The position numbers and the translations under genes are program-made. From sequence record PV808484.1: a DNA stretch of 64,000 bases, one strand, 5' to 3'. A model generated the notes under the pieces. That model was not told the origin of the DNA. It ran no database searches and worked only from the letters and a program-made list of their open reading frames with translations. Positions 20,048 to 60,358 of the stretch are shown here, piece by piece (position 1 is the first letter of the stretch; every line of letters begins with the position of its first letter). The DNA comes from a phage.

Positions 20048-20371
20048 ATGCAAAAAATAAACACTGGTTCTCGTCCTAAACAGAAGCAAACAAAAGCAAG
20101 GGTATCTTATGTTGACAACTCTTGTTATAATTTCAAAAATGTTAAAGAAGTTATCATTGATGAAAAAGAAGGTTTGATTCACATTTCATCTGAACGTTTG
20201 AAAGGTAGTGTTACTCTTCGTGAGAATGTATCTATACCTATGAAAGTTGTGGCTACACTCTGTGTTGATAAGCCAGATGTTGTTAACTACTATGTGTTCC
20301 GTGATAGTTGTATTTCATTACATAATAAGATTTTTAAATCTTCGCACGTTAAAACAAAACACATTGTATAA
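20048..20371 (+). CDS. hypothetical protein
   Basis: ORF track. Confidence 0.5.
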   Translation: MQKINTGSRPKQKQTKARVSYVDNSCYNFKNVKEVIIDEKEGLIHISSERLKGSVTLRENVSIPMKVVATLCVDKPDVVNYYVFRDSCISLHNKIFKSSHVKTKHIV

Positions 20372-20377
20372 CACATA

Positions 20378-20400
20378 AACCCGCTTCGGCGGGTTTTCTT
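20378..20400 (+). terminator. intrinsic terminator AAACCCGC-TTCG-GCGGGTTT plus T-run
   Basis: read directly. Confidence 0.6.
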
Positions 20401-20456
20401 GTATATATGCTCTTTGTGTGTTTTTATTTGTCTTAGCCTAAACAGTAGGAGGTCTT

Positions 20457-20678
20457 ATGTCTGTAGTTGTAGAAGGTAGTATTGGTTTCTTAGTAGATAA
20501 CCCTCACCCTTTCGTGGTTAAGGTTCATATTCAAGAAAAGGTAAGCAACAATACGTGGTTGTGCTTGTTAGATAGTAAGATACACTCTTATACAGAGGTT
20601 TATCTTCACACTTGGCAAATTGGTACGATAACAGCAGAGGATGAATTGATAATTGAATTATATGAACGAGATCTATAG
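20457..20678 (+). CDS. hypothetical protein
   Basis: ORF track; AGGAGG RBS. Confidence 0.5.
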   Translation: MSVVVEGSIGFLVDNPHPFVVKVHIQEKVSNNTWLCLLDSKIHSYTEVYLHTWQIGTITAEDELIIELYERDL

Positions 20679-20757
20679 ATGACTTTACTAGAGAGTATCG
20701 TAGTGTTAATCATCTTTATCATTGTTGTCATAGGATATTTTACAGAAGACTAAAATA

Positions 20758-20790
20758 AAGCCCCTAGAATCGCTTCTAGGGGCTTTTGTT
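20758..20790. terminator. bidirectional terminator hairpin at the convergent strand switch
   Basis: AGCCCCTAGAA-TCGC-TTCTAGGGGCT flanked by A-run and T-run. Confidence 0.55.
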
Positions 20791-20853
20791 TGCATTAGAT
20801 AGGGAAACGTATTACTAAGATAAAAAGTGCGTTAGAATGCGTTACAGGAGGTT

Positions 20854-21111
20854 TTAGGAATGCATAAAATCTTCTTCAGGGCAGGTTGAAAGATAAGAGA
20901 TGCACGTTGGGACAACAACAACATTGTCTTTAAGGTTTGCAACCAAGCCTTTTGTAATTCCAGCCACTGCCCCGTTAATATCTGCTTGACGGATACCAAA
21001 ACCTTGTTGTGCGGATAGATAACAAAATCCCTCACCTTTCTGTTGATTATTATTGAAGTAATAAACGTAGTGCATCATAAAATGGTCTTTAACGATTTGT
21101 TCTGTGGTCAT
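20854..21111 (-). CDS. hypothetical protein
   Basis: ORF track. Confidence 0.4.
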   Translation of the reverse strand: MTTEQIVKDHFMMHYVYYFNNNQQKGEGFCYLSAQQGFGIRQADINGAVAGITKGLVANLKDNVVVVPTCISYLSTCPEEDFMHS

Positions 21112-21126
21112 AATATTCTCCTATAA

Positions 21127-21147
21127 GAAAAGGGGCTTTCGCCCCCT
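21127..21147 (-). terminator. terminator hairpin GGGGCTTTCGCCCC (recurrent element)
   Basis: same hairpin at 32417 and 45499. Confidence 0.5.
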
Positions 21148-21155
21148 TGGTCAAG

Positions 21156-21968
21156 TTACTTAGTCAAATGATCTTCTATCATTTTTATGAAAGCAGGATT
21201 GCTAAAAGCATCTGCTGCCTTTTCTCTATAAACAAAGACTCCTCTATCTTCGTAAAGAAGAGTTTCTTCGTAATTAATTCCTGGGTTAACAACAATCATT
21301 TTTGTACCCATATTAAGTGCAGGGAATAATTCCCAATTAAAATTGATAACTTGGTTTGAACATCCTACTACAACAACCAAATCTTGCATGGTCAAAGTAT
21401 CAAACAAGTGAGCCATATCTGCATACAAAGGTGCAGCCTCACCAAAAAATACAACATTAGGCTTCACCCAGTTATAATCATCTATGTTTATACTATTGTA
21501 ACCAATGTCTACCAGTGTTTTGTAATCTCCAGGATGCATACGGTAAACTACTTCAGGAAGATACCCGTGCACGTGAATAACAGAATCCCTGTCCACACCT
21601 GCTCGCTCTAGTAGATCATCAACGTTTGTTGTCAAGTTTACTACTTGGTTAGGATATTCCTTAAACCACTTTGCTATTTGAATATGTGCAGCATTAGGTT
21701 GTACATCTTTAAGCTCAACACGTCTTTTGTTATAAAATTCGTGTGTTTTGGCATACAAGTCCATACCGTTCTCGTCTACACCACCGACCACTGGAAGATC
21801 TGGAGATGTTCTCACACGATAACCTGCTTGGAAAGCTCCAATATCGCAGACCTCTTCTAAGTCATATTCTTCCCATAAGGCACGACCACTATCTGTGTCT
21901 GTTCGGAACGTTCGAATCCCACTGTCTGCACTTAAACCTGCGCCACTAACAAAAATTACTCTTCGCAT
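21156..21968 (-). CDS. sirtuin-like (Sir2/CobB family) NAD-dependent protein
   Basis: GAGLSADSGIRTFR, NVDDLLERAG, HVHGYL and VVFFGE match sirtuin signature blocks in order. Confidence 0.75.
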   Translation of the reverse strand: MRRVIFVSGAGLSADSGIRTFRTDTDSGRALWEEYDLEEVCDIGAFQAGYRVRTSPDLPVVGGVDENGMDLYAKTHEFYNKRRVELKDVQPNAAHIQIAKWFKEYPNQVVNLTTNVDDLLERAGVDRDSVIHVHGYLPEVVYRMHPGDYKTLVDIGYNSINIDDYNWVKPNVVFFGEAAPLYADMAHLFDTLTMQDLVVVVGCSNQVINFNWELFPALNMGTKMIVVNPGINYEETLLYEDRGVFVYREKAADAFSNPAFIKMIEDHLTK

Positions 21969-21979
21969 TCAATATCCTC

Positions 21980-22525
21980 TTAGTAATCATCATCCCAAGA
22001 AGATGCGTCGTAACGCTCTTCCTCTTCGAAATCCCAATTAATTTCTACTCCAAAATCTAAAAACAATTTAACAATGTTTTCTGTAGAGTAGTATTTATCA
22101 TAAGCATTAGCTAGTTCCCAATACTTGTCACTCAATTTTTTATATTTAGGATCATTATAGTCATAATCTACTTTATAACCATAATCATACATCTCTTGTT
22201 CAGCTTTAAGCATAGCTTCTGGTGTAAGAAGATTAGGGAACGGACGATTTCTTTCTTTTAACTTAGAAGCAATCCAGTTTGCAACATTCGCCACTTCACC
22301 ATCTCGATTATCACCTAAACAACTTGCATAATCTCCATCTTCGTAAGTGCCTAAATCCCCACTAACTTCATGTACAATAGACGAATACGATCCACACGTT
22401 TCACAATCTGAAAAAGTGTCTACTGTTGTAATATCAATAGATAAAACTGGTAAAGCCATAGCTTCTTTCACACAAGCCTCCTCATATAATAACATGTCAT
22501 CAAAACCCATATATCCTCCAGACAA
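21980..22525 (-). CDS. hypothetical acidic protein
   Basis: ORF track. Confidence 0.45.
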   Translation of the reverse strand: MSGGYMGFDDMLLYEEACVKEAMALPVLSIDITTVDTFSDCETCGSYSSIVHEVSGDLGTYEDGDYASCLGDNRDGEVANVANWIASKLKERNRPFPNLLTPEAMLKAEQEMYDYGYKVDYDYNDPKYKKLSDKYWELANAYDKYYSTENIVKLFLDFGVEINWDFEEEERYDASSWDDDY

Positions 22526-22564
22526 ATAAAGCCCCTGTTTGGGGCTTTGGTTAAGTTTTACGGA

Positions 22565-23176
22565 TTATACCAGACTTTTAAGGTACTTGTCAAGGGCTTC
22601 TTGATCACCTTGACAAACATAGCAACGGAAGTCTTGAGCAGAAGGTTCTTTGTCCTCGTCCCAATCCCAATAGACAGTACCTTTATAGCGTGAGCCTGGG
22701 AACTCGAAGTATGCCACATGAGTAATATGGTGTGGGCCACCCCAAAATTCTGTAAAAGTAAATTGAGGATACGCTGCTTTAACTGTATTTTCAAACCAAG
22801 TTTTACGATCTAATGCTTCGTTTATAAAATAAGCATGGCGTTCCATTTCATCCCAATCTTTCCAAACGCATTTTTCATCCAGAGAAAAAACAAAATCTTC
22901 ACTGTTAAAATCGTCTGTATCTGATTCCAAAATATCATAATCATGTGCACTAGGTATCCACCATCCAGCTTCTAATAGTGCTTTTGCAGGTACAAAACCT
23001 TTTTCAGCATATTGATCAAATTCTTTTACTCTACGTACAGTGCAGTATTCATCTTCACCACCAATGTCCAGTAGACAAGCACCTTTGCGTCTTGCTGCAA
23101 GACCATGTGTATCAAAAACTACAACACTACCTTCACCGTCTTCACGATCTACTTGATATGCAACTTTTTGAGTCAT
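22565..23176 (-). CDS. hypothetical protein
   Basis: ORF track. Confidence 0.45.
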   Translation of the reverse strand: MTQKVAYQVDREDGEGSVVVFDTHGLAARRKGACLLDIGGEDEYCTVRRVKEFDQYAEKGFVPAKALLEAGWWIPSAHDYDILESDTDDFNSEDFVFSLDEKCVWKDWDEMERHAYFINEALDRKTWFENTVKAAYPQFTFTEFWGGPHHITHVAYFEFPGSRYKGTVYWDWDEDKEPSAQDFRCYVCQGDQEALDKYLKSLV

Positions 23177-23299
23177 ATTACCCCCAATGTATATGGGAAA
23201 TTAACCAAAAGATAAATTCCCAAAAACACCAACCAAGAAAAGTTAATGGAATTATAAAGGCTATCAGAGCAGTCTTCCAGCCTTTCCACAATGTTTCCA

Positions 23300-24289
23300 C
23301 TATTCCTCCATACATTTAAGAATATGTGCAATGACAGGTATAGTCCAACCGTTACCTAACATCTTATATGCTTGTGTGTTACTACTCACTTTAAAGTAAT
23401 CATCTGGCACACCTTGCAAGCGGCAACACTCTTTAACCGTTAACTTTCTATAATGTACGCCTTCACTCAATTTTTCAAAGGCATCTAGATATCTTCCAGG
23501 TGGAATGTAGGCTAATAGTACGTCTTTAGGCACAGTCGTGAGGCAACGAGTTTTTTCACTGTCCTGAACTTCCAAACAATGTACCAAACGATCAGTTTTA
23601 GATGTACTACGTTTGCCATTTTCATTAATTCTACGCCCATATATTGCTGCCGGATAAAAAACCAGTTGTCTGCGACTCTTTTCAAAATACTGTTCTATAT
23701 TACCACCTTTGGCATAATTTGCATCTATGCAATAAGCCTTATCTCTGTCTACAATACTATCATCTTCAATGATATCTTGCAACACTTCATTGGTAATCTC
23801 CCAGGGTTTTATTTCCCAGTTGCACCAGTATAAACGTTGTCTATTCTGTGCCGTGAAATCTGCGGAGTTAATGAATACGGGATCAACACCTAAGTAACTT
23901 GTGATCACGTTTTCCCACTCCACTTTCATCTTAACGTTTTCAAGCATGAACTTAACATTAGGATTAAACTTTTTAATATGTTCAAGAATTTCAACATATT
24001 CGAAGAATAGCTTAGATCGCGGATCTTGAAAGTTCAAACCCTTACCAGAAGAAGAGAAGCCTTGACACGGACTACCACCTAACAAAAGATCAATTTCTCC
24101 CCACGGGATATCCCATTCTCTCCATTTTGTAACATCACCTAACTGAATAATATCTGGAAAATTTGCTTGGCTTTCAGCTACGGCAAATTTGTCTAATTCT
24201 GAAGCGTAATATGTATCTACTTCAATACCTGCACTTTTTAGCGCAAGCATTCCTCCTGACATACCATCAAAAAGACTTAAAACTTTCAT
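23300..24289 (-). CDS. dcm: DNA (cytosine-5)-methyltransferase
   Basis: LFDGMSGG (motif I), GGSPCQGFS (motif IV), ENV (motif VI). Confidence 0.85.
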   Translation of the reverse strand: MKVLSLFDGMSGGMLALKSAGIEVDTYYASELDKFAVAESQANFPDIIQLGDVTKWREWDIPWGEIDLLLGGSPCQGFSSSGKGLNFQDPRSKLFFEYVEILEHIKKFNPNVKFMLENVKMKVEWENVITSYLGVDPVFINSADFTAQNRQRLYWCNWEIKPWEITNEVLQDIIEDDSIVDRDKAYCIDANYAKGGNIEQYFEKSRRQLVFYPAAIYGRRINENGKRSTSKTDRLVHCLEVQDSEKTRCLTTVPKDVLLAYIPPGRYLDAFEKLSEGVHYRKLTVKECCRLQGVPDDYFKVSSNTQAYKMLGNGWTIPVIAHILKCMEE

Positions 24290-24291
24290 TA

Positions 24292-24702
24292 TTACTTCTT
24301 CTCCTTAACACTAGCTGGTAATTCTGCCTTGAGGCAGAAGTTTAAACGGTAAGCCTCATTCTCATTTAAAAGTACAGATTCACACGATAACCAGAACAAG
24401 AGATCCTCAATACCAGGACTGTTAAGCCAACAGTGCAGAAGAGAATGTTGTTCTATATCAATGTAATTTAGTAACAAGGCTTGTAAGGCGTAACTAGTTC
24501 CTGTCGTTTTTGCTTTTTCAAGGATGATATTGTGTTTACTAACAACTTTCTTCCTAAGACCAAACCATTTATTAACAACAACAGTCTCTTCTTGTAGTTG
24601 TTTTCTTATTTTCTCACATTCTTTAACTACAATCTGCATCTTATCCACTGCTGATTGAAGTTGTTCTTTTGTTGGGTTTACAAAATAATCACTATAATAC
24701 AT
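24292..24702 (-). CDS. hypothetical protein
   Basis: ORF track. Confidence 0.45.
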   Translation of the reverse strand: MYYSDYFVNPTKEQLQSAVDKMQIVVKECEKIRKQLQEETVVVNKWFGLRKKVVSKHNIILEKAKTTGTSYALQALLLNYIDIEQHSLLHCWLNSPGIEDLLFWLSCESVLLNENEAYRLNFCLKAELPASVKEKK

Positions 24703-24784
24703 GCTAAACTCCTCTTCTGTTTTTCTGTAGTCTATTCGAAAAAACTGGTGTTGTCAACAAAAAACCCGCCGAAGCGGGTTTATA

Positions 24785-27532: not shown

Positions 27533-28105
27533 TTAATGTGTTAATGAAACTGCGTAGCTAAACACAGGTTCAGATATTACATCGGCTACAGTAATAAAAA
27601 CGTCTTCGTCTTGAGTTGTTTCTACACGACATACAGTTACACCATTCACCACGAATTCAACGCAATGTGGAATATTTTCACAAACGAAGGTAGTGTAAGT
27701 AACACCCAAAGCATCATACAAAGATTTAACAGTGTTTGCAAGTGCCGCAGTTTCTTCTTTTTCTGAGACAATGAATGCTGTAACAACAAGATTGTTTGCA
27801 TAGTTTAGACTGTCCTCTATAGCCAATGATTTACAAGGTAGTAATGCAAAATATTTACCTGGTTTAATCAGACCTGCTTCCCATTGATTCAAAATTGCCT
27901 GGGATGGTTTAGTAATATAAAACAGATTTTCACTTGGGTTATCAATATTACTTCTGGCGATACAACGTGAAGGATTATTAATATCAAACACATGATCAAA
28001 ATCTACACAAACAGGTAAACTGAAAGGTGTGAATTTTTTACCTAATAATCCTATGGCTGATAATATGTTTGCTGTGCTTATCTTCCCGTTAAAAGCTAAA
28101 CGCAT
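27533..28105 (-). CDS. hypothetical protein
   Basis: ORF track. Confidence 0.45.
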   Translation of the reverse strand: MRLAFNGKISTANILSAIGLLGKKFTPFSLPVCVDFDHVFDINNPSRCIARSNIDNPSENLFYITKPSQAILNQWEAGLIKPGKYFALLPCKSLAIEDSLNYANNLVVTAFIVSEKEETAALANTVKSLYDALGVTYTTFVCENIPHCVEFVVNGVTVCRVETTQDEDVFITVADVISEPVFSYAVSLTH

Positions 28106-28329: not shown

Positions 28330-28992
28330 TTATTTAATATTCAATTTTGCACAAAGACGTTGTACCGCTTTGGCATCGAACAAACTCCCACGAATAGTTC
28401 TCTTTCCTGATTCATTCAGATGCTTTGCAATCGTCATATATGGCGTTTTACAAGCTCTGTATGCAACTAAAGAATCTTTTAAAGAAAGCGCAAACTCTCT
28501 TGAGCGTTTTGCTTCTTCCGTTTTCGTATAATCTGTTCTTTTGTATTTAGGGTTTGCTGCACCAAGAAGCGTTCCCTTCGCTTTTGCTACCTTAAGGCTC
28601 TTCTTAACACGATCAGATATTGCACGAGCCTCTTCTTCTGCCAGAACTGCTAAAATATTTATTATCATATTTTCAGCGGAGGGCATAGTTGCTATTCGTA
28701 CATTAATCATCTCTAACAAGGTTGCAACAGAAGCTGTGTTACGTCCAAGACGGTCAACCTTAGCAACAACAAGTGTAGCACCTGTTTCTTTGCAAAGATT
28801 AACAGCTTTTACAAGCTCTCTACGTTGCTTCCAATCGCCTTTACCCGAATAAAACTCTGCAAAGCTACCTACAATAGTATAATTTTCTTGTGAATCCAGG
28901 AAGCGTTGAATATCTGCTTCCTGTGATTCTATACCATACTGGTTGCCTTGTTGTTTCTTCTTAGAAAGTCGATGATATAGTACAAACTTCAT
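28330..28992 (-). CDS. serine recombinase (resolvase/invertase family)
   Basis: N-terminal YHRLSKKKQ (catalytic Ser), VVAKVDRLGRN, SDRVKKSLKVAKAKG; C-terminal HTH-like tail. Confidence 0.75.
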   Translation of the reverse strand: MKFVLYHRLSKKKQQGNQYGIESQEADIQRFLDSQENYTIVGSFAEFYSGKGDWKQRRELVKAVNLCKETGATLVVAKVDRLGRNTASVATLLEMINVRIATMPSAENMIINILAVLAEEEARAISDRVKKSLKVAKAKGTLLGAANPKYKRTDYTKTEEAKRSREFALSLKDSLVAYRACKTPYMTIAKHLNESGKRTIRGSLFDAKAVQRLCAKLNIK

Positions 28993-34743: not shown

Positions 34744-34755
34744 TTAATTCCCCTT

Positions 34756-35625: not shown

Positions 35626-35633
35626 ACTCCTCC

Positions 35634-49103: not shown

Positions 49104-49826
49104 TTAAGCAATGATTGCTGCGATATTAGGTTTAACAAAGGTAGATGGTTTCATAATTTTACCTTTGTCATCAAAGAATACATACACCTTTTGAACTTCG
49201 TTATATACAGCGTGTACCCCAGTATAAGAACCTTCTGCACGATCTTTGCTTCGCATCTCTATAGCATCACATTCTTTTTCAAGAGCTTCAATAATATCCT
49301 TAGTTTCCCAAATAGCCAGGAGTTGCTTCTTGGTAGGATATTTGGACTCATTGCTATTCAACACTTCACGCATAACCTTCTTCTCGTTATAAACAGAACG
49401 TACCAAAGTATCTCGTGCCATACGTGTAAGTGTAAGAGACATTAGGGCAAATTGCAAGTCATTTTCTACCATTTTATCAAATTCAATGATAACATCGTAA
49501 ATGTTTTCTGCCAGAACATCTCCTGTCGGCATTTCCAGAGCTTTATCAACACCTTCTTTACCAAAGAACATAAACGCCAGGTAGGATGCTACCACAAAAA
49601 TATCTGCTGCTGCATCAAGTAATTCAACGTGATCATTTTCCTGTGCTGCTGCTTGGAACTCTTTAAGTTCTTCTCGTACAAAAGAAAGTTGAGCTTCAAA
49701 CATCTCTTGAGTAAACTCTGGAGTTACTCCACCACGTGCCTTAGCATTCCAAGCAACAATCTGATCGGCAGCTTTGATAAAGAAGCTATTGTCCACTTTT
49801 ACTTGTTTGAAAAAATTCTCGATCAT
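49104..49826 (-). CDS. MazG-like nucleotide pyrophosphohydrolase (tentative)
   Basis: EELKEF and ELLDAAADIF acidic helices typical of all-alpha NTP pyrophosphatases. Confidence 0.4.
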   Translation of the reverse strand: MIENFFKQVKVDNSFFIKAADQIVAWNAKARGGVTPEFTQEMFEAQLSFVREELKEFQAAAQENDHVELLDAAADIFVVASYLAFMFFGKEGVDKALEMPTGDVLAENIYDVIIEFDKMVENDLQFALMSLTLTRMARDTLVRSVYNEKKVMREVLNSNESKYPTKKQLLAIWETKDIIEALEKECDAIEMRSKDRAEGSYTGVHAVYNEVQKVYVFFDDKGKIMKPSTFVKPNIAAIIA

Positions 49827-49835
49827 TGTTTCTCC

Positions 49836-50042
49836 TTATTTAAAATATTGTTCTAACAAAACACTAATGCGAACTACCGATTCGCCCATATACGCCCCAG
49901 CACAGAGGAAAACAACAAATCTACAAAAATTGCAGTACCATTTGTCAACTGGAAACGAGGCTAACATTATAATTGCAATAGCAATTAACATCATAAGAAC
50001 TGTTGCTAATACCATACTACCTCTTACTCTGCTGGTTCCCAA
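49836..50042 (-). CDS. small membrane protein
   Basis: hydrophobic core VLATVLMMLIAIAIIMLASF. Confidence 0.45.
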   Translation of the reverse strand: MGTSRVRGSMVLATVLMMLIAIAIIMLASFPVDKWYCNFCRFVVFLCAGAYMGESVVRISVLLEQYFK

Positions 50043-51139
50043 GTACCTGGAATCATCTTACGTACACGTACCCCAACAGGTTTAGTAGGAATACCTTCGT
50101 CTGAAAATTCTTCGTACTCAATTTCAACAAATTGACCAATAAGTGTCAAAGCATTTTCTTCTTTACGATAGTTAATGGTTTCATCTGAATCCTTACGCAT
50201 CAGGAATTCGACTACTTTACCATTTTCCATCTCGCCTGTCAATACCCCGTCACCATTTTTATCACGTTTTGCACTGACTACCTTAACTTCAAGAGTCTGC
50301 CGTGGTTTACGTTTAATAACATCATAAGAACGTTTATCAAACTCGTAAACACCTTGTGCGTTACGATACACAACACCTTCCGCTTTCTCATGCAGAGCTT
50401 TTGCATAGAAAGCATCAAACTGCTCTTGGTTTTCAATGTATTCTGTATGTACTACACAAATGAGTTCATCTAAACCTTTATCTTCAACAACTTCTTTTAG
50501 AGCAGCTAAAACTTGAACCCTCTTCTCAAATGGTACAGATGGCACAGGAACATCATATACATAGTATTTAAGAAGCGGAGTGTTAGCATTATGCTTTTTC
50601 CACGCACTATTAATTTGTTGAAGGCTAAGGACACCCAAACCAGCAAAAACTTCACCGTCAAGAGGATGACCAACTACTTCTTTAATGAAGGTTGGAATTT
50701 CTTTCCAGTGAGGTGGAAGTTTATATACCTCCCCAGCTTTAGATAAACATTCACCTTGCATGTTAATCATTGAACGTAGACCATTCAATTTATATTGTGC
50801 ATAACCTGGGAACAAAACACGATCAGCATAATCTTTATAATCCTGACATTTCATGGGTGTGGAAGGAACATGGTTTTCAGCTTCCTCTTTTGTTTTATAA
50901 TACCCACTCTTAAGTTGCTTTGTCCATTTGGCAAGAGCTTCTATTTCAGCTTGTTCTTCTGCTGTTGTTTCATTTGAGCGACCAATATTTTTAGGTTCTG
51001 CTGTATAAGATTTGCTAGTAATCTTTCCACCTAATTGACCATGAGCAACAGTTACAACACTACCTTCGGTATAGACTGACCACTGTTTAATTTTACCTGT
51101 AGAAGTTTTACCATATAATGTAGGATTAGTTTGTTTCAT
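50024..51139 (-). CDS. ATP-dependent DNA ligase-like nucleotidyltransferase
   Basis: start moved to Met with GGAGG RBS; motif I YKLNGLR (N where D is canonical), motif III HPLDGEV, motif IV EGVVYR, motif V DVIKRK. Confidence 0.7.
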   Translation of the reverse strand: MKQTNPTLYGKTSTGKIKQWSVYTEGSVVTVAHGQLGGKITSKSYTAEPKNIGRSNETTAEEQAEIEALAKWTKQLKSGYYKTKEEAENHVPSTPMKCQDYKDYADRVLFPGYAQYKLNGLRSMINMQGECLSKAGEVYKLPPHWKEIPTFIKEVVGHPLDGEVFAGLGVLSLQQINSAWKKHNANTPLLKYYVYDVPVPSVPFEKRVQVLAALKEVVEDKGLDELICVVHTEYIENQEQFDAFYAKALHEKAEGVVYRNAQGVYEFDKRSYDVIKRKPRQTLEVKVVSAKRDKNGDGVLTGEMENGKVVEFLMRKDSDETINYRKEENALTLIGQFVEIEYEEFSDEGIPTKPVGVRVRKMIPGTWEPAE

Positions 51140-51329
51140 CTTTAACCTCCAGTTGCGAAAGAACCCATTTAGCCATTTCAATTTCACCGTGTAGTCTGCC
51201 TAGTTCATAGGCATCATCAATATTACCACCAGTGTAATCATCCACCATAAAGTAAGGATCTTCGCTACTGTTAGGTGCGTTTGCAATTCTCGTTAGTTCT
51301 TCAATAAATGTCATAGTCACCCTTACCAA
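51126..51329 (-). CDS. hypothetical protein
   Basis: ORF track. Confidence 0.4.
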   Translation of the reverse strand: MVRVTMTFIEELTRIANAPNSSEDPYFMVDDYTGGNIDDAYELGRLHGEIEMAKWVLSQLEVKDETN

Positions 51330-51547
51330 TTATACACAAGAGTTTGAATTTCTTCCATTAAGTCTTCAAGATCTGTATCAACGTATTCAGAAGATGTTGC
51401 CATAAAGTATGTAATCATTGTGAACCCTTCTGAAGAAAGGGCATCAAGGATATCATTAAACATATCTTCCATTTCAGTATTCTCACCAAATGAGAATAAC
51501 ATTTGTTGATCTTCGCTTACACCTTTAACATAGATAGCTGTACTCAT
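51323..51547 (-). CDS. hypothetical acidic protein
   Basis: ORF track. Confidence 0.4.
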   Translation of the reverse strand: MSTAIYVKGVSEDQQMLFSFGENTEMEDMFNDILDALSSEGFTMITYFMATSSEYVDTDLEDLMEEIQTLVYNW

Positions 51548-51550
51548 ATA

Positions 51551-51871
51551 TTAATCCTTAAGACGTTCATTTAAATCTGCAATAACATCACCTAAATCTT
51601 CACATTCCAGTGTTAATTCTGAAACTTGTCCACTCAAATAACAAACTTCTTCATTTAGATCTGAAATAATGTTTTCTAATGAATCTACTTGGTCATCATA
51701 TGAACGTTTTGTTTCTTCAAGTTCTTCCGTAAGATCATTAATCAAATGGAGCAAAGATAAGATATAACCGTCTCCTGTCGCGTTCCTCCACTCACTTCCG
51801 TAGCGATAAATAATAATTTCACCATTATCGACTACTGTAAAATACTTACCTTCACCAGAATAAATTTCCAT
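51551..51871 (-). CDS. hypothetical protein with coiled-coil-like C-terminus
   Basis: ORF track. Confidence 0.45.
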   Translation of the reverse strand: MEIYSGEGKYFTVVDNGEIIIYRYGSEWRNATGDGYILSLLHLINDLTEELEETKRSYDDQVDSLENIISDLNEEVCYLSGQVSELTLECEDLGDVIADLNERLKD

Positions 51872-51880
51872 ACGCTCTCC

Positions 51881-52285
51881 TTATTGTAGCTTAAGTGAAC
51901 TGCGAAGACGTTTCTCTTGCTGATCACGAATATGTTGTGGAACCTCATGAATTGAGTCGTTACCGTGCCTATTTTCAACAACTAAAGAGATAACTTGATA
52001 ACCAAACTCTTCAGCAAGAGTAAAATAAGGTTTAAGTTCTTTCTCTGTGGTTGAAGTGTTAGAGACAATAATCTTTTTAATATTAGACTGCATAGCATCA
52101 CGAACAATGACTCGACACCATGCGTGTGCTTTACCTACATTCTCTGGCTTCCAATCGTAAACACCACTTTCTGTGTAATGATATTGATCTGCCTCACAGA
52201 TAGGCCAATAACCTTCAGAAATAATTTCTGCTACTGTAGATTTACCTGCACCTGAAACACCACGTAAAATGATAAGTTGTTTCAT
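51881..52285 (-). CDS. P-loop polynucleotide kinase-like protein
   Basis: ILRGVSGAGKST Walker A; short kinase-only protein. Confidence 0.6.
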   Translation of the reverse strand: MKQLIILRGVSGAGKSTVAEIISEGYWPICEADQYHYTESGVYDWKPENVGKAHAWCRVIVRDAMQSNIKKIIVSNTSTTEKELKPYFTLAEEFGYQVISLVVENRHGNDSIHEVPQHIRDQQEKRLRSSLKLQ

Positions 52286-53218
52286 TTAGCCTCCAAAGAA
52301 GTTTTCTATTTCTTTACGTCGCTCTTGTGGATCTAGAGCAGCCCATTGAACCTTCGTAAAATTATTTCGAAGCCATTCTAGCAAAGTATAATATTCTTCG
52401 TCAACAATTTGTTTAGCATTTTTTGGGTTGTCCCAAATCATATCCCACTTCTTATTGCCACCACGCATAAGGAATTTCTTAGCAAGATAGTATGGTGACT
52501 TAATCTTTAAAAGTAAGTTAAACGGATAGTTTGTTTCACGAACAACAAAGCCTTCGTGTCTACAATGTTTAGACATTTCAACAACATCTGAAAATTTAAT
52601 CATTGGATAAACTTCAGGACGTTTAAACTTTGTAATAGATGCAATCCCATCAAGAACACCTTCAGGTAACATGAAACTTGTCCCATCAAGATTTTGAATT
52701 CTTGCTCCAATTAAGTATGCGCCTGGTTCTTCTTCGACAATATGTGGATCAGAAGGATCACAGATTTCAAAAAGGAAAGTTGCTTTTGCACTTTCTGTCC
52801 ACTTAATGAAATACTCTATGTCGTCACACTCGGAAACAATACGGTTCTTTGCCATAATTGCAAAATCTGATTCTAGGCTCCCTGTTGTTGATACAACAAG
52901 TTTCCCTTTGTACACACCTACAGATGCCATAAAACCGTTTACTTTACGGACAGCATCTACAAGCTGGTCTGCTGGAAGATCTGTACCATTCTCAAAACGA
53001 TTAAAGATTTTAGTAAAAGGCCAAATAACAACATTGTCTTCTGAGTCAACAACCAACCCACGACAATATAGAAGCCGTTTGTCAACGTTCCACAAATTAT
53101 CCCAGAATACATTGTTTTTGTATTTAAGTACAGCAAGACCAGCATACTCTCCAGATTTAACTTCTTTTTTATGCACTAAACCTTTTGCAATCAGGTCATC
53201 ACAATTGAACTTAGCCAC
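52286..53218 (-). CDS. RNA ligase-like nucleotidyltransferase
   Basis: motif I KVNGF, motif IV EGFVVR, motif V KIKSPYY. Confidence 0.6.
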   Translation of the reverse strand: MAKFNCDDLIAKGLVHKKEVKSGEYAGLAVLKYKNNVFWDNLWNVDKRLLYCRGLVVDSEDNVVIWPFTKIFNRFENGTDLPADQLVDAVRKVNGFMASVGVYKGKLVVSTTGSLESDFAIMAKNRIVSECDDIEYFIKWTESAKATFLFEICDPSDPHIVEEEPGAYLIGARIQNLDGTSFMLPEGVLDGIASITKFKRPEVYPMIKFSDVVEMSKHCRHEGFVVRETNYPFNLLLKIKSPYYLAKKFLMRGGNKKWDMIWDNPKNAKQIVDEEYYTLLEWLRNNFTKVQWAALDPQERRKEIENFFGG

Positions 53219-53219
53219 C

Positions 53220-53771
53220 TTAATCTCCTTTGATTATCTTATGATGGTCTACAACAACAATATCACGCTTATCCATAATAGAGATGATTTCGTCAAAATG
53301 CAAGATTTTCCCGTGTGCATCCCAACCAACATCCAACATCTTCCCATACAAATGATCAGGGAATGATCCGTGAGAGTGTCCGTGTAGCATGATTGATCCA
53401 TGCCCTTGTTTATTCCAGGCAGCCATAGGGTAATGGCTTAAGACGAAAAACAGCTTCTGATATTTCACTTCGTCATAATAAACCACTTCTCCATACTCTG
53501 CAAGCACTTTTCTGTGTTTACTGTAATCATGGTTCCCAACACAGTAAGTAATATCCCCTTGGAGACGGGAAGCAATCTTACGGGTATCTTCTTCAGTCCC
53601 GAAACAGAAGTCCCCAAGATGGTACATCTTTACTCCTGGTGTTGTGGCACATTTATTCCATGCTTCGATCAGTGCTTCTGTCATATGCTCCATATCTTCC
53701 CACGGGCGATATTCAGGAGCAAACTCTCGGATACGTTTGTGCATAAAATGCAAATCACTTGTAATAAACAT
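53220..53771 (-). CDS. calcineurin-like metallophosphoesterase
   Basis: SDLHFMH, HLGDF and GNHDY motifs. Confidence 0.7.
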   Translation of the reverse strand: MFITSDLHFMHKRIREFAPEYRPWEDMEHMTEALIEAWNKCATTPGVKMYHLGDFCFGTEEDTRKIASRLQGDITYCVGNHDYSKHRKVLAEYGEVVYYDEVKYQKLFFVLSHYPMAAWNKQGHGSIMLHGHSHGSFPDHLYGKMLDVGWDAHGKILHFDEIISIMDKRDIVVVDHHKIIKGD

Positions 53772-54133
53772 TAGTATAATCCCTCGCTGAATAGTTCACT
53801 GTCGTGACCATTTCTTTCATAGTTAATTTGTTTGGCGTTATCTGCAATGATATAAGCATCTTTGCGACTCCACCAATTATAATACTGATCAATAAACCCT
53901 TGATTATCAGGTAAGCAAAACAGTTTATCGATCAATCCTGCATCTTTTAAAACATTAAGTTGTGCAGATAGTACAGGATTTGCATGCCTAACACAAGGAA
54001 TAATTAACTCTTCGCCATTGTTGAGAATATACTTATTCGCAGCGCAGACTATAACACGTTGAGCATAGTGATCCTCACCAATCCAAGTAAGAGGTTGGTA
54101 ACAAATATCATGTTGATTAGTAGCGCACATCAA
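53771..54133 (-). CDS. hypothetical protein
   Basis: ORF track. Confidence 0.45.
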   Translation of the reverse strand: MMCATNQHDICYQPLTWIGEDHYAQRVIVCAANKYILNNGEELIIPCVRHANPVLSAQLNVLKDAGLIDKLFCLPDNQGFIDQYYNWWSRKDAYIIADNAKQINYERNGHDSELFSEGLY

Positions 54134-54288
54134 TTTTCTCCATACTCTTTTAATTTATCAGCGAAAAAACTGTAGTCAGGAAGTAAAAGATCATTACTAG
54201 TATCGCTCCAGTTTTCTTCCTCTCTATAGATAAAATGCCCTTCATCCTCTTCTTGCTCTGACCAAACTGAATAATGCATAATACCTAC

Positions 54289-54663
54289 TTAATAGTTAAC
54301 ACGTTTAATTTCAACACCATAGGATGAAATAAAATTTTCCTTAGCTAACATATATTTACCAGCAGCAGAAGGATTTGATGTATGAACATAGATAGTTTTA
54401 AGAGCATCCCATTCACCCGCGTACAACATACATTCTACATCCAAGAACGCATGATATCCTTCTTGATCTTCTCCAAGATCATTGTCGAAGTGTATCTCTG
54501 AGATAGTATTGAAATTATCTTCATCTGAAACAAAAGCTAACCAATCCTCAAAAGATTTTAACCAAATGGCATCCTCATAACCATAATCTTTAGGATTTCT
54601 TAAATCGTCTAACCAAAGAATTTTAGCCACTATCAACCCCCTGCCTGTTTCTCTTCTTTCCAA
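54289..54663 (-). CDS. hypothetical protein
   Basis: ORF track. Confidence 0.45.
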   Translation of the reverse strand: MERRETGRGLIVAKILWLDDLRNPKDYGYEDAIWLKSFEDWLAFVSDEDNFNTISEIHFDNDLGEDQEGYHAFLDVECMLYAGEWDALKTIYVHTSNPSAAGKYMLAKENFISSYGVEIKRVNY

Positions 54664-56677: not shown

Positions 56678-57571
56678 ATGAAAGTTAGTATTCTACATGG
56701 TGTTGACTGTTATGTTACTGATGTAGACGTTAAAGTGTTTACATTCTCTGGTGGAGAACAACATGTTCAATTAGATACGAACCTGTCAGGTTTCAATCAT
56801 GCTACAGACAGAATCTTACTCACATTAGAAGTAAGATCTGCTAAAGACTTGATGACTTTGGTTATGACTAAGAATGCATTGGACAATATGCTATATCATA
56901 AACCATATTGTGTTGATTTACTCATGTTGTATGTACCGTATGCACGACAAGACAGAGTGTGTGAGCCTGGGGAAGCATTTGGAGTTAAAGCATTTGCTTC
57001 TATAATTAACTCATTAAATTTCTCACGTGTTATCGTTGCTGATCCACACAGTGATGTTACTCCAGCAGTGTTTGACAGACTCTGTGTAATACCTCAAGAA
57101 GAGATTGCTTACGAAACTTTAAAATGGAAGTTACGTATGGAGAATTTTGCTCTTGTTAGTCCTGATGGTGGTGCTCTTAAGAAAATATTTAAATTATCTA
57201 AGAAAATGTCTTTAGATGTGTTCTGTGCAGAGAAGGTTAGAGATACCGCAACAGGTGCTATTGTTCGTACAGACATTTCTGTACAGGATTTCAATAAGCG
57301 TAACCTGATGATCGTAGACGATATCTGTGATGGTGGTAGAACTTTTATCGAATTGGCTAAAGTGCTACGTGCTCGTAACGCAGGTAAGATTGAGCTATAT
57401 GTTACACACGGTATCTTTTCTAAAGGTCTTAAAGAGTTAAGTGAGCACTTTGACTGCATTCATTCTCTTAATATATGGGAAGATAACATCCAAGAAGATT
57501 CCGGTGTTCTTGTTAAGAATCAGTCAGATTTGCAACAACAAATTGTATCTCCATACGTGTGGAATTTTTAA
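56678..57571 (+). CDS. prs: ribose-phosphate pyrophosphokinase (Prs)-like enzyme; candidate ADP-ribose pyrophosphokinase
   Basis: YVPYARQDR, VIVADPHSD and MIVDDICDGGRTF phosphoribosyltransferase-type blocks aligned to Prs. Confidence 0.8.
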   Translation: MKVSILHGVDCYVTDVDVKVFTFSGGEQHVQLDTNLSGFNHATDRILLTLEVRSAKDLMTLVMTKNALDNMLYHKPYCVDLLMLYVPYARQDRVCEPGEAFGVKAFASIINSLNFSRVIVADPHSDVTPAVFDRLCVIPQEEIAYETLKWKLRMENFALVSPDGGALKKIFKLSKKMSLDVFCAEKVRDTATGAIVRTDISVQDFNKRNLMIVDDICDGGRTFIELAKVLRARNAGKIELYVTHGIFSKGLKELSEHFDCIHSLNIWEDNIQEDSGVLVKNQSDLQQQIVSPYVWNF

Positions 57572-57581
57572 ATAATAAGTG

Positions 57582-57625
57582 TTGACAATAGGGAGTATGC
57601 TTAGTAAGATACTCCCACACTAACA
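57582..57625 (+). promoter_or_regulatory. TTGACA promoter plus leader hairpin GGGAGTAT-N-ATACTCCC
   Basis: read directly upstream of ATG 57643. Confidence 0.45.
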
Positions 57626-57642
57626 AACAAGGAGACATAACT

Positions 57643-59376
57643 ATGAATATTTTTGCACCTTTTGCTACTGATTGGTATAAACCTGGTCACAAGCAGATGT
57701 ACAACCAAAATACAAAACTTATTTTCTCTAATTTAACTCCTCGTAATGATAAAAACTTTGCACACTATGCAGATCGTGAAGCACGTGGTGTCATTGTTTT
57801 AGGTATTCGTAGAGCAGTAACCGATGCTCTTGTAACTATGTGGGACGGCTTCTTTAAAATGTCTCGTAGTGCAGCAGTAAATAAATTTTATCGTATGTCT
57901 AAAAATGCATTAGGTGCTTCTGCTCCTTCTGCTGAATGTTGGGGAGAATTGCACGATTTAGGTTATCTTCCGCTGGAAGTTCGATCTCTGCCAGAAGGTG
58001 TTTTGTGTCCTATTGGTGTTCCTGTGTTTACTGTGCATAATACTTTAGAAAAATTCTTTTGGTTAACTAATTATGTGGAAACACTGTTGTCAGATGAAAC
58101 TTGGAAGACAATGACTAATGCCACAGCAGCTTTTCAGTATAAGCGTATCGCTATGGCATATGCGATGGCAACGTGTGATAATATTGATCACGTTAACTTC
58201 CAGTGTCATGACTTTAGCCTACGTGGTTTAAGTAATATCGAAGATGGTTATAAGAGTGGTATCGCTCATTTGGCATCGTTCACAGGAACAGATAATATTC
58301 TGGCTATTGAAACTGTACATGATTATTATGGTATTGATTATGATCAGTTTGTTGCAGGTTCTATTCCGGCTACAGAACATTCAGTAGCAACGACTAACAT
58401 TGGAGCTATTGTTGAAGATCTGAAGGAACATTTCCCACGTCTTAAAGATGATGTAGATTGGCTTCGTTATGTAGCAGAAAAAGAGTTTCTTCGTCGTTAT
58501 ATTGAAGAAATTGTTCCAGAAGGTTTTTGTTCATATGTAGCAGATTCTTATGATTACTGGGCTGTATTGACTAACATTCTGGTAGAGTTGAAAGATTCTA
58601 TTATGTCACGAAATGGTCGTCTTGTTATTCGTCCAGACTCAGGAGATCCGGTTAAAGTTGTTGCAGGATACAATATTGAATCTTTTGATAACTATGAAGA
58701 CCTTTTAAATAATGGTATTGCGACAGCCACTGAAGTAGTTCATTTGGCTGATGTTAATAAGTATTACAATGTTCTTCAGGATTGCAGTGTTGCTGACTGT
58801 ATTGATGAAACTTATGAAATTCCTTATTATGAAGCAGTAGGTTCTATTCAAATCCTTTGGGAAGTGTTTGGTGGTACTATCAACCGAAAAGGCTACAAGG
58901 TTCTTGATCAGCATATCGGTATGATTTATGGTGATTCTATTACTGTTGAACGAGAACACGAGATCTTACGCCGACTGAAGAAGAAAGGTTTTGCAGCTTC
59001 CAATATTGTATTTGGTGTTGGTAGTTATACTTATCAGTTCAATACACGAGATACTTTCGGTTTTGCTGTTAAAGCAACAGGTAGTATCATCGGTGAACAC
59101 GAAATTTTGGTAAGTAAGGAGCCTAAAACTGATCCTGGTAAACGCTCTGCAAAAGGCTTTATTAAGGTTGTTAAGGATACCAATGGTAATCTCTCTCTTG
59201 TAGATAATCTTTCTTTTAAAGATATCCAGGATGAAGACAATGAGTTACAAGTTATCTTCAAGAATGGTAAGGTTATTACACCACAAGTAGAAGGACGTGA
59301 TGAAACATTTACTGATATCCGCAACCGTGTTGACGTAGAGGTTCTTCGTACTATGGGAACCATCCAGGTTGACTAA
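57643..59376 (+). CDS. nadV: nicotinamide phosphoribosyltransferase (NAMPT/NadV)-like enzyme
   Basis: N-terminal FATDWYKPGHKQMY block typical of NAMPT; 577 aa with extensions. Confidence 0.85.
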   Translation: MNIFAPFATDWYKPGHKQMYNQNTKLIFSNLTPRNDKNFAHYADREARGVIVLGIRRAVTDALVTMWDGFFKMSRSAAVNKFYRMSKNALGASAPSAECWGELHDLGYLPLEVRSLPEGVLCPIGVPVFTVHNTLEKFFWLTNYVETLLSDETWKTMTNATAAFQYKRIAMAYAMATCDNIDHVNFQCHDFSLRGLSNIEDGYKSGIAHLASFTGTDNILAIETVHDYYGIDYDQFVAGSIPATEHSVATTNIGAIVEDLKEHFPRLKDDVDWLRYVAEKEFLRRYIEEIVPEGFCSYVADSYDYWAVLTNILVELKDSIMSRNGRLVIRPDSGDPVKVVAGYNIESFDNYEDLLNNGIATATEVVHLADVNKYYNVLQDCSVADCIDETYEIPYYEAVGSIQILWEVFGGTINRKGYKVLDQHIGMIYGDSITVEREHEILRRLKKKGFAASNIVFGVGSYTYQFNTRDTFGFAVKATGSIIGEHEILVSKEPKTDPGKRSAKGFIKVVKDTNGNLSLVDNLSFKDIQDEDNELQVIFKNGKVITPQVEGRDETFTDIRNRVDVEVLRTMGTIQVD

Positions 59377-60270: not shown

Positions 60271-60356
60271 GCAAGTGTGGTGGAATTGGTGATACACATT
60301 GTGCTTAAAACGCAACGCTTAAATGATTGAGGGTTCGAATCCCTCCACTTGCACCA
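60271..60356 (+). tRNA. tRNA-Leu (anticodon TAA), class II
   Basis: acceptor GCAAGTG/CACTTGC, T-arm GAGGG-TTCGAAT-CCCTC, anticodon loop CTTAAAA, long variable arm, encoded CCA. Confidence 0.7.
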
Positions 60357-60358
60357 AC

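What the first reader, a model, noticed from the sequence alone, without database searches (positions are those of the whole stretch)
21156..23176. Sirtuin-like protein encoded by a virulent phage, followed by two unknown acidic proteins
The 270 aa protein carries the canonical sirtuin blocks GAGLSADSGIRTFR, NVDDLLERAG, HVHGYL and VVFFGE, so it is probably an NAD-dependent deacylase or ADP-ribosyltransferase. The two genes upstream of it (21980-22525 and 22565-23176) have no recognisable motifs. A phage that both consumes NAD through a sirtuin and appears to regenerate NAD (56678-59376) may be modifying host or phage proteins in an NAD-dependent way, for example as a take-over function or to inactivate a host defence factor.
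Basis: partly seen in the sequence, partly recalled or inferred. Interest (0 to 1): 0.65.

Follow-up and report, generated by a model that had tools for sequence, protein, structure and literature searches.

The report
Known phage sirtuin lacking zinc site
The gene is a real, probably active NAD-consuming sirtuin, but it belongs to a family already annotated in about a thousand phage genomes whose true substrate (protein lysines or broken RNA ends) has never been tested.

Summary
It is not new. The window is the right end of a phi92-like Justusliebigvirus (99% identical to Escherichia phage EmilieFrey/Bas61), and the protein is phi92 gp038, already labelled Sir2-like in GenBank. Homologues occur in 993 phage records.

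It derives from CobB/SIRT5-type (class III) sirtuins but has no zinc-binding cysteines, has Thr in place of the Gln of TQNID, and scores below every curated CobB cut-off. In rV5-, Mydo-, T5- and GAP32-like phages its orthologue sits beside RNA-end or ADP-ribose-phosphate processing genes. Here those genes lie 30 kb away. This agrees with the published, untested prediction of a KptA/Tpt1-like 2'-phosphotransferase (Iyer et al. 2022). A lysine deacylase role is not excluded.

The two acidic upstream proteins are lineage-specific and not co-distributed with the sirtuin. The "NAD regeneration" genes are NARP1, a demonstrated counter-defence. Verdict: real, ordinary as a finding, function open.

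The parts
21156..21968 (-). Sirtuin (phi92 gp038 orthologue, 270 aa). A zinc-less, class III-derived phage sirtuin of PHROG 2162.
21130..21148 (-). Terminator-like hairpin (AAGGGGGCGAAAGCCCCTT followed by TTCTTAT) 8 nt after the sirtuin stop codon.
   Evidence: A terminator is annotated at the same place in phage Paula.
21980..22510 (-). Acidic protein (phi92 gp039 orthologue, 176 aa from ATG 22510, pI 4.05). It ends 11 nt before the sirtuin start. Function unknown (PHROG 9509).
22528..22548 (-). G+C-rich hairpin between the promoter and the gp039 start. It could terminate upstream transcripts and forms the 5' leader of the gp039-sirtuin transcript.
22564..22593 (-). The only perfect sigma-70 consensus promoter in the window (TTGACA-18-TATAAT with an extended -10 TG). 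Its -10 box overlaps the gp041 stop codon. It predicts early transcription of gp039 and the sirtuin by host RNA polymerase.
   Evidence: 1 match; 0.1 expected. Conserved in EmilieFrey and Paula.
22565..23176 (-). Acidic protein (phi92 gp040/041 orthologue, 203 aa, pI 4.58). Function unknown (PHROG 8514). The C-terminal half has a generic NTF2/cystatin-like fold.
49107..54663 (-). RNA-repair type cluster, an inferred functional partner 30 kb from the sirtuin. It contains a MazG-like protein (49107-49835), DNA ligase (50024-51187), a P-loop kinase (51881-52285), a T4 Rnl1-type RNA ligase (52286-53218), a Metallophos_2 phosphoesterase (53220-53771) and cREC (54289-54663).
56678..59376 (+). NARP1 operon: Adps (56678-57571) and Namat (57643-59376). 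It rebuilds NAD+ from ADP-ribose and nicotinamide. It could recycle sirtuin products, but this link is inferred only.
   Evidence: Preprint 10.1101/2024.02.11.579819.

Best explanation
The gene encodes a catalytically competent, stand-alone sirtuin of the phage-specific clade PHROG 2162 (phi92 gp038, the T5 and rV5 'Sir2-like' proteins). The clade descends from CobB/SIRT5-type class III sirtuins. It has lost the four zinc-binding cysteines and the Gln of the TQNID motif.

In this phage the gene is probably transcribed early by host RNA polymerase, from a perfect sigma-70 promoter, together with the small acidic protein gp039.

Mechanism (inferred). The enzyme binds NAD+, expels nicotinamide and transfers ADP-ribose to an oxyanion acceptor, and His134 then activates the ribose 2''-OH for a second attack. 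The acceptor is most likely a phosphate, namely a 2'-phosphate on cleaved or re-ligated (t)RNA. The reaction would then parallel KptA/Tpt1 and release ADP-ribose 1'',2''-cyclic phosphate.

The phage's cREC, phosphoesterase, kinase and Rnl1 genes (49-55 kb) would do the rest of the RNA repair and process the ADP-ribose product. NARP1 could turn the resulting ADP-ribose and nicotinamide back into NAD+.

Shown here: homology, fold, catalytic residues, loss of the zinc site, and the gene contexts. Inferred: the activity, the acceptor and the coupling to NARP1.
For: - Sirtuin identity and active-site residues. AF2 model pLDDT 89.8, closest to CobB (Foldseek E=3.5e-17, TM 0.72-0.85).
- Departure from deacylases. 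There is no Cys in the zinc module. Among 151 relatives, 46 of 58 zinc-less sequences also lack the TQNID Gln, against 15 of 93 zinc-containing ones (odds ratio 20). All NCBIfam CobB models score far below their cut-offs (106 bits against 243; 87 against 320).
- Context in relatives. In rV5-like slur16 the order is Rnl1, cREC, Sir2. In Mydovirus BIS47 it is phosphoesterase, Rnl1, cREC, kinase, Sir2, DNA ligase. In T5-like HildyBeyeler Sir2 is followed by HAD_SAK_2. In GAP32 a 2H protein precedes Sir2 and a Nudix-cREC fusion follows it. These neighbours handle cyclic or terminal phosphates, not acyl esters, and none of the neighbours scanned has a Macro domain.
- The same gene set is present in this window at 49107-54663.
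- This reproduces the prediction of Iyer et al. 2022 (PMC9503650, section 3.7.3).
- The chemistry of the sirtuin and Tpt1 reactions is analogous (established knowledge).
- The Tpt1 product pathway Appr>p to ADPR-1''P to ADPR is known, and ADPR feeds NARP1.
- Early expression: the window's only consensus promoter lies just upstream.
Against: - No experiment on any member of the clade was found.
- In this genome the sirtuin is 30 kb from the RNA-repair cluster.
- The protein is strongly acidic (pI 4.8, net charge -15; family pI 4.65-5.8). It has no clade-specific conserved basic residues beyond those shared with zinc-containing relatives. Both are unexpected for an RNA-binding enzyme.
- The class III Y-x-x-R motif (Tyr79, Arg82) and the VVFFGE acyl-lysine strand are retained, which would also fit a desuccinylase or deacetylase.
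- Coupling to the RNA ligase is not strict. Rnl1 homologues occur in 675 records, many in Pseudomonas phages; Pseudomonas is not among the ten commonest organism names in the sirtuin hit list. Only 15 are in Salmonella phages, so most T5-like sirtuin carriers lack this ligase.
- The Metallophos_2 enzyme could heal RNA ends without leaving a 2'-phosphate.
- E. coli already has KptA (own knowledge).
Confidence: 0.4

Rival explanations
1. It is an ordinary CobB-like NAD-dependent lysine deacylase (deacetylase, desuccinylase or similar).
For: - The closest solved structures and sequences are E. coli CobB, archaeal Sir2 and SIRT5.
- The catalytic His, Asn and Asp are kept, along with the class III Tyr79-x-x-Arg82 pair that binds acidic acyl groups in SIRT5 and CobB, and the VVFFGE strand that hydrogen-bonds the acyl-lysine.
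- An acidic surface is compatible with basic protein substrates.
Against: - The zinc module, regarded as structurally required in canonical deacylases, has no cysteines.
- The Gln of TQNID is replaced by Thr.
- The V-x-P substrate-staple motif after GTS reads VINFNW.
- The protein scores below every curated CobB model cut-off.
- None of the neighbours scanned in five lineages has a Macro domain, the known de-esterase of O-acyl-ADP-ribose. Instead, cyclic-phosphate or phosphate-processing enzymes flank it in four of the six lineages examined.
Confidence: 0.3
2. It is an NADase or a macromolecular ADP-ribosyltransferase used for host take-over or against a host defence factor. NARP1 would compensate for the NAD+ spent.
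For: - Zinc-less SIR2 domains in bacterial defence systems are NADases (own knowledge).
- The gene is predicted to be expressed early from a strong host-type promoter.
- The phage carries NARP1.
- Some sirtuins ADP-ribosylate proteins (PMC9503650).
Against: - There is no significant match to any defence SIR2 model in PADLOC (best E=0.0066).
- The best matches are housekeeping sirtuins, not ThsA, DSR or HerA-type SIR2.
- Wasting NAD+ would harm a phage that invests in rebuilding it.
- No partner Macro domain or antitoxin-like gene is present.
- NARP1 is fully explained as a counter-defence.
Confidence: 0.15
3. It acts on small ADP-ribose-derived molecules rather than macromolecules. For example, nicotinamide exchange on ADP-ribose-1''-phosphate-type compounds would assist NAD+ reconstitution when defences such as aRES make products that NARP1 cannot use.
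For: - Sirtuins catalyse nicotinamide base exchange (own knowledge).
- Its neighbours in other phages (cREC, 2H, Nudix, HAD) are all predicted processors of ADP-ribose derivatives.
- In GAP32 the sirtuin lies about 2 kb from the Nampt gene and about 4 kb from the NMNAT gene.
- The aRES and NARP1-AP work shows that ADPR-1''P matters in this arms race.
Against: Purely speculative. The reverse reaction is thermodynamically uphill. No precedent exists, and no co-location with NARP1 is seen in this genome (35 kb apart).
Confidence: 0.07

Closest known systems
Phage sirtuin clade of Iyer, Burroughs, Anantharaman and Aravind 2022 (PMC9503650). It equals PHROG 2162 and includes phi92 gp038 and the T5, rV5, Mydo, SP15 and Serratia BF 'Sir2-like' proteins.
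   Same: Direct sequence membership: PHROG E=1e-105, 100% identity to phage arall, and 47-60% identity to rV5-, Mydo- and T5-like orthologues. The zinc-less architecture is the same. The genome encodes the same partner set: Rnl1, cREC, kinase, MazG-like protein and calcineurin-like phosphoesterase.
   Different: In Stephanstirmvirinae the sirtuin has been moved about 30 kb away from that cassette. It sits behind two lineage-specific acidic genes and has its own consensus promoter.
E. coli CobB and human SIRT5 (class III sirtuins, lysine deacylases)
   Same: Fold (TM 0.72-0.85), the GAGxSxxSGIRTFR loop, the Y-x-x-R motif, Asn and Asp, the catalytic His-Gly, and the FGE strand.
   Different: 27% identity. 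There are no zinc cysteines, the TQNID Gln is Thr, and the V-x-P motif is changed. There is a 4-residue insertion after FR and a variable insertion at residues 47-72. The protein scores below all curated CobB cut-offs.
KptA/Tpt1 RNA 2'-phosphotransferase
   Same: Proposed to work alike: NAD+-dependent removal of an RNA 2'-phosphate through an ADP-ribosylated intermediate and attack by the 2''-OH. Relatives have a comparable RNA-repair gene context.
   Different: The fold is unrelated (Tpt1 is an ART-fold enzyme), so this is an analogy and not family membership. No biochemical evidence exists.
Defence-associated SIR2 NADases (ThsA, DSR1/2, SIR2-HerA, SPARSA)
   Same: SIR2 superfamily members without a zinc ribbon that consume NAD+ in phage-host conflict.
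   Different: The phage protein has no sensor or partner domain and no PADLOC model match. It is closest to housekeeping sirtuins and is encoded by the phage, not the host.

Membership tests
Sirtuin / SIR2 superfamily (PF02146) | Significant match to the family profile and a Rossmann-type sirtuin fold | tested here: met
   Pfam E=1.3e-22, above the gathering cut-off. AF2 model pLDDT 89.8 with top Foldseek hits all sirtuins.
Sirtuin / SIR2 superfamily (PF02146) | NAD-binding loop GAGxSxxSGIxxFR, Asn and Asp of the (T)QN(I)D motif, and the catalytic His of the HG motif | tested here: met
   Residues 9-22, Asn115, Asp117 and His134-Gly135. His, Gly and Asn are invariant in 151 relatives.
Canonical sirtuin deacylases (classes I-IV, U) | Four-cysteine zinc-binding module between the HG and FGE motifs | tested here: not met
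   There is no Cys in residues 136-170. A three-stranded sheet is still predicted there.
Canonical sirtuin deacylases (classes I-IV, U) | Gln of the TQNID motif | tested here: not met
   Thr114 in this protein. The position is Thr, Ala, Ser or another non-Gln residue in 46 of 58 zinc-less relatives.
Class III sirtuins (CobB/SIRT5) | Y-x-x-R motif of the acyl pocket, and closest similarity to CobB and SIRT5 | tested here: met
   Tyr79 and Arg82 align with CobB Tyr92 and Arg95. CobB 1S5P is the best sequence and structure hit.
CobB protein deacylase equivalogs (NCBIfam NF040867, NF001752-5) | Score above the curated whole-protein cut-off | tested here: not met
   106.5 bits against 243; 86.6 against 320; 83.7 against 318; 62 against 221.
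Class III sirtuins (CobB/SIRT5) | NAD-dependent lysine deacylase activity | not testable with these tools
   Requires enzyme assays.
Phage 'RNA-repair' sirtuin clade (PHROG 2162; Iyer et al. 2022) | Sequence membership in the clade | tested here: met
   PHROG 2162 E=1.3e-105. tblastn gives 47-60% identity over 98% or more of the length to rV5-, Mydo- and T5-like proteins.
Phage 'RNA-repair' sirtuin clade (PHROG 2162; Iyer et al. 2022) | Sirtuin gene adjacent to RNA-end processing genes (Rnl1, cREC, kinase, HAD_SAK, 2H, Nudix) | tested here: not met
   In this window the neighbours are gp039, gp041, gp037 and a Dcm methylase. The cassette lies at 49107-54663. Adjacency is met in the relatives slur16, BIS47, HildyBeyeler and GAP32.
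KptA/Tpt1 2'-phosphotransferase (PF01885) | ART-fold Tpt1 domain | tested here: not met
   Only the SIR2 domain is detected. The resemblance is mechanistic and by inference only.
Defence-associated SIR2 NADases | Match to the SIR2 models of defence systems, and a fused or adjacent sensor or partner (SLOG, HerA, pAgo, DSR C-terminal domain) | tested here: not met
   PADLOC gives only a marginal PDC-S65 hit, E=0.0066. The protein is a 270-aa single domain and its neighbours have no such domains.
SirTM (Macro-linked ADP-ribosylating sirtuins) | Operon partner with a Macro domain | tested here: not met
   No Macro domain was found in the ORFs scanned around the sirtuin (20854-24702) or in the other window ORFs scanned. 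The EmilieFrey annotation of the region has none.
NARP1 (Adps + Namat) for 56678-59376 | Adjacent phage Prs-like (PF14572) and Nampt-like (PF04095) genes, listed in the Adps and Namat clades | tested here: met
   Pfam. The N-termini are identical to the EmilieFrey entries in the supplementary tables of 10.1101/2024.02.11.579819. The region is 97.5% identical in nucleotides to EmilieFrey. Activity was not testable.

The most novel reading that the evidence does not exclude
The phage sirtuin would be the first sirtuin-fold enzyme to use a nucleic-acid 2'-phosphate as acceptor, making it a Tpt1 analogue. Together with cREC, a phosphatase and NARP1 it would form a closed loop:

NAD+ + RNA-2'P -> nicotinamide + ADP-ribose-1'',2''-cyclic phosphate -> ADPR-1''P -> ADPR -> NAD+

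The phage could then repair tRNAs cut by host anticodon nucleases at no net NAD+ cost, even in NAD+-depleted cells.
Probability: 0.25. Interest if true: 0.7.

Novelty: already known. Interest (0 to 1): 0.3.

Why it matters
If the published prediction is right, a sirtuin would act on RNA phosphate instead of acyl-lysine. That would widen sirtuin chemistry and tie phage tRNA repair to the NAD+ arms race (NARP1-3, aRES).

The family is common, at about 2% of deposited phage genomes. It includes model and therapeutic coliphages: T5-like, rV5-like, phi92-like and the BASEL phages Bas33 and Bas61. The tools to test it exist.

As a scan finding it adds little, because the gene, the family and the hypothesis are all already on record. 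The small new points are:
- The joint loss of the zinc cysteines and the TQNID Gln as a clade signature.
- The failure to reach the curated CobB thresholds, which means the GenBank 'deacetylase' labels are unproven.
- The displacement of the gene from the RNA-repair cassette in Stephanstirmvirinae.
- Its own consensus early promoter.

Tried and rejected
- **gp039 and gp041 as dedicated sirtuin partners.** Rejected. They occur in 137 and 154 phage records against 993 for the sirtuin. gp039 is absent next to the sirtuin in Klebsiella phage KP13-26. Neither matches Pfam, NCBIfam, PADLOC or PDB sequences.
- **Defence-type SIR2 or SirTM.** Rejected.
- **CobB equivalog.** Rejected on curated cut-offs.
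- **Strict genomic coupling of the sirtuin to the Rnl1 RNA ligase.** Not found.
- **Universal co-occurrence of the sirtuin with NAD+ reconstitution pathways.** Confirmed only for Justusliebigvirus, Mydovirus BIS47 and GAP32. It could not be shown for T5-like or rV5-like phages, because the annotation is silent and the supplementary tables are truncated.
- **Fetching Bas63 by a guessed accession.** Failed.
- **Experimental work on phage sirtuins.** Literature searches found none.
- **Surface and electrostatics of the model.** Could not be examined because the coordinates are not exposed.
Full report
**Origin of the window.** The region 20500-24500 is 99.3% identical to Escherichia phage EmilieFrey (Bas61, MZ501063; Justusliebigvirus, Stephanstirmvirinae). 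More than 50 phi92-like genomes cover it in full. Window position equals EmilieFrey position minus 82666, so the window is the last 64 kb of such a genome.

**Check of the observation.** ORF 21156-21968(-) gives the 270-aa protein with all four quoted motifs.
- It matches Pfam SIR2 (E=1.3e-22), PHROG 2162 'Sir2' (E=1.3e-105) and E. coli CobB (E=1.5e-18).
- It is 100% identical to the 'putative Sir2-like protein' of phage arall. It is the orthologue of phi92 gp038, 'putative Sir2-like transferase'.
- The two ORFs upstream in the direction of transcription are real, acidic (pI 4.05 and 4.58) and lack any recognisable domain.
- The first of them most likely starts at ATG 22510, behind a GGAGG, and not at TTG 22525.

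**What kind of sirtuin it is.** An AlphaFold model built from 25 homologues is confident (pLDDT 89.8). Its best structural matches are CobB, archaeal Sir2 and SIRT5 (Foldseek E about 1e-17, TM 0.72-0.85, 27% identity).

Features it keeps:
- the GAGxSxxSGIRTFR loop;
- Asn115 and Asp117;
- the catalytic His134-Gly135;
- the FGE strand;
- the class III Tyr79-x-x-Arg82 pair.

Features that differ:
- There is no cysteine where the four zinc ligands should be, although a three-stranded sheet is still predicted there.
- The Gln of TQNID is Thr114.
- The V-x-P motif after GTS reads VINFNW.

A search of 1.84 billion representative proteins gave 2174 relatives, of which only 26 had E<=1e-30. I aligned 151 sequences: 143 of the 150 best, those of at least 180 residues, plus this protein, five phage orthologues, CobB and Sir2Tm. 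Of these, 58 are zinc-less and 46 of those also lack the Gln. Of the 93 zinc-containing sequences, 78 keep it. The odds ratio is 20, with the caveat that the sequences are not phylogenetically independent. The protein scores below every curated NCBIfam cut-off for CobB-type deacylases. It matches no defence-system SIR2 model. The common GenBank label 'NAD-dependent protein deacetylase' is therefore an unproven transfer of function.

**Distribution and context.** tblastn finds the family in 993 of 50,697 phage records:
- Stephanstirmvirinae;
- Vequintavirinae (rV5, Mydovirus; 47-57% identity);
- T5-like Demerecviridae (52-60%);
- KVP40-like Vibrio phages (37-39%);
- GAP32-like jumbo phages (about 35%).

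I examined neighbourhoods in six lineages:
- rV5-like slur16: Rnl1, cREC, Sir2.
- Mydovirus BIS47: phosphoesterase, Rnl1, cREC, kinase, a small ORF, Sir2, DNA ligase.
- T5-like HildyBeyeler: Sir2, a small ORF, then a HAD 'Swiss-army-knife RNA repair' phosphatase.
- GAP32: Nampt and NMNAT nearby, then a 2H protein, a small ORF, Sir2 and a Nudix-cREC fusion.
- Vibrio phage nt-1: no clear partner.
- This window: the sirtuin is flanked by gp039, gp041, gp037 and a Dcm-like methylase. The same partner set lies at 49107-54663: a MazG-like protein, DNA ligase, a kinase, Rnl1, a Metallophos_2 phosphoesterase and cREC.

The sirtuin has therefore been displaced from this cassette in Stephanstirmvirinae. 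Phapecoctavirus and KP13-26 share the displaced position.

This independently reproduces the analysis of Iyer et al. 2022 (PMC9503650). They proposed that this viral sirtuin clade acts like KptA and removes RNA 2'-phosphates. I found no experimental test of that idea or of any phage sirtuin.

**Weighing the mechanisms.**

For a phosphate acceptor:
- The recurrent neighbours open cyclic phosphates or remove phosphates. These are the steps needed before and after a Tpt1-type reaction.
- None of the neighbours scanned has a Macro domain, the esterase for O-acyl-ADP-ribose.
- The sirtuin and Tpt1 reactions are chemically parallel.
- The enzyme has diverged from deacylases at three conserved sites.

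Against it:
- The protein and its family are acidic.
- No clade-specific basic patch appears in the conservation analysis.
- The acyl-pocket residues are retained.
- Most T5-like carriers lack an Rnl1 homologue, while Rnl1 is common in Pseudomonas phages, which are not among the main sirtuin carriers.
- In this genome the genes are 30 kb apart.

I put the RNA 2'-phosphate model at about 0.4, a CobB-like deacylase at 0.3, an NADase or ADP-ribosyltransferase at 0.15, and small-molecule ADP-ribose chemistry at under 0.1.

**Expression.** The only perfect sigma-70 consensus promoter in the 64 kb (TTGACA-18-TATAAT with a TG) lies at 22593-22564(-). Its -10 box overlaps the gp041 stop codon. One match was found against 0.1 expected by chance. 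A hairpin follows at 22548-22528, then gp039, then the sirtuin 11 nt later, then a terminator at 21148-21130. This predicts an early bicistronic gp039-sirtuin transcript made by host RNA polymerase. The promoter is conserved within Justusliebigvirus, but gp039 is dispensable elsewhere.

**The upstream proteins.** gp039 (PHROG 9509) and gp041 (PHROG 8514) are largely confined to Stephanstirmvirinae. There are a few distant hits in Erwinia jumbo phages and in Pseudomonas and Xanthomonas phages. The gp041 model (pLDDT 77.8) shows only a generic NTF2/cystatin-like C-terminal half. Their function is unknown, and nothing links them mechanistically to the sirtuin beyond position.

**The 'NAD regeneration' genes.** 56678-57571 (Prs-like) and 57643-59376 (Nampt-like) are the NARP1 enzymes Adps and Namat. 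The EmilieFrey and phi92 proteins, with N-termini identical to those in the window, are listed in the NARP1 tables of Osterman et al.. That study showed that NARP1 rebuilds NAD+ from ADP-ribose and nicotinamide and defeats SIR2-HerA and other NAD+-depleting defences. Its presence is thus already explained. A link to the sirtuin, in which NARP1 recycles the sirtuin's products, is possible. The Tpt1 product pathway Appr>p to ADPR-1''P to ADPR is known, and phages extend NARP1 with an ADPR-1''P phosphatase. The link is nonetheless inferred only.

**Verdict.** The finding is real and correctly read as a sirtuin. It is an already annotated member of a known phage family with a published functional hypothesis. 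Novelty is low. The open and experimentally tractable question of its substrate gives it modest interest.

Noticed in passing
window 22528-22593 (-): The single perfect sigma-70 consensus promoter of the window has a -10 box that contains the stop codon of the upstream gene. It is followed within about 10-30 nt of the expected start site by a terminator-like hairpin. Transcripts from it may therefore be attenuated, or may carry a stabilising 5' hairpin.
   Followed up: partly
window 20377-20396 and 24762-24781: The same 20-nt bidirectional terminator hairpin (AAACCCGCTTCGGCGGGTTT) occurs twice, 4.4 kb apart. The second copy is immediately followed by a TTGACA promoter. The two copies look like reused transcription punctuation units bracketing the methylase-to-sirtuin block.
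   Followed up: no
window ~20300-21150: The GC skew changes sign near 20 kb, and convergent terminators lie at 20757-20786. The sirtuin is the second-to-last gene of the long minus-strand gene block that runs from about 56 kb down to 20.8 kb.
   Followed up: no
window 49107-54663 (-): A complete RNA-repair style cluster: a MazG-like protein, an ATP-dependent DNA ligase, a kinase-only Pnk (134 aa, no phosphatase domain), a T4 Rnl1-type ligase, a Metallophos_2 phosphoesterase and a cREC protein. It lies next to NARP1 and a 14-tRNA array.
   Followed up: partly
window 60271-62876 (+): An array of 14 tRNA genes lies just downstream of NARP1. The T5-like sirtuin-carrying phage HildyBeyeler has more than 20 tRNA genes, and six lie at the edge of the slur16 (rV5-like) locus. 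tRNA arrays may therefore be common in sirtuin-carrying lineages.
   Followed up: partly
window ~33360-36620 (-) (EmilieFrey 116028-119289): A four-gene dTDP-rhamnose pathway (RmlA, B, C and D homologues) is annotated in this virulent phage. Its purpose, whether modification of DNA, virion or host surface, is unclear.
   Followed up: no
window 30466-31119 (-) and 28330-28992 (-): A proteasome-subunit-like protein (Pfam Proteasome, E=1.6e-5, 25.1 bits against a cut-off of 22.4) and a resolvase-family serine recombinase (E=8e-22) are encoded by a phage regarded as strictly lytic.
   Followed up: no
window 23178-23300 (-): A 40-aa Trp-rich hydrophobic ORF (probably a small membrane protein) is wedged between the Dcm-like C5 methylase and gp041. 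It has no family match.
   Followed up: no
window 22565-23176 (-); L009 2348-2960: The gp041 orthologue is annotated as two separate ORFs in phi92 (genes 040/041, from the BFVD hit) and in Phapecoctavirus vB_EcoM_01. This suggests frameshifts or sequencing errors in those records.
   Followed up: no
hits: Several records named 'Campylobacter phage' (A150, A145, C3, A110a, A141) are about 97% identical to E. coli phi92-like or rV5-like phages. The host labels are probably wrong or reflect contamination.
   Followed up: no
window 21980-22510 and 27533-28105 (-): Both ORFs are annotated 'putative aminoacyl-tRNA synthetase' in EmilieFrey. Pfam gives only a sub-threshold PhetRS_B1 hit (E=0.032) for the first and nothing for the second, so the labels look spurious.
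   Followed up: partly
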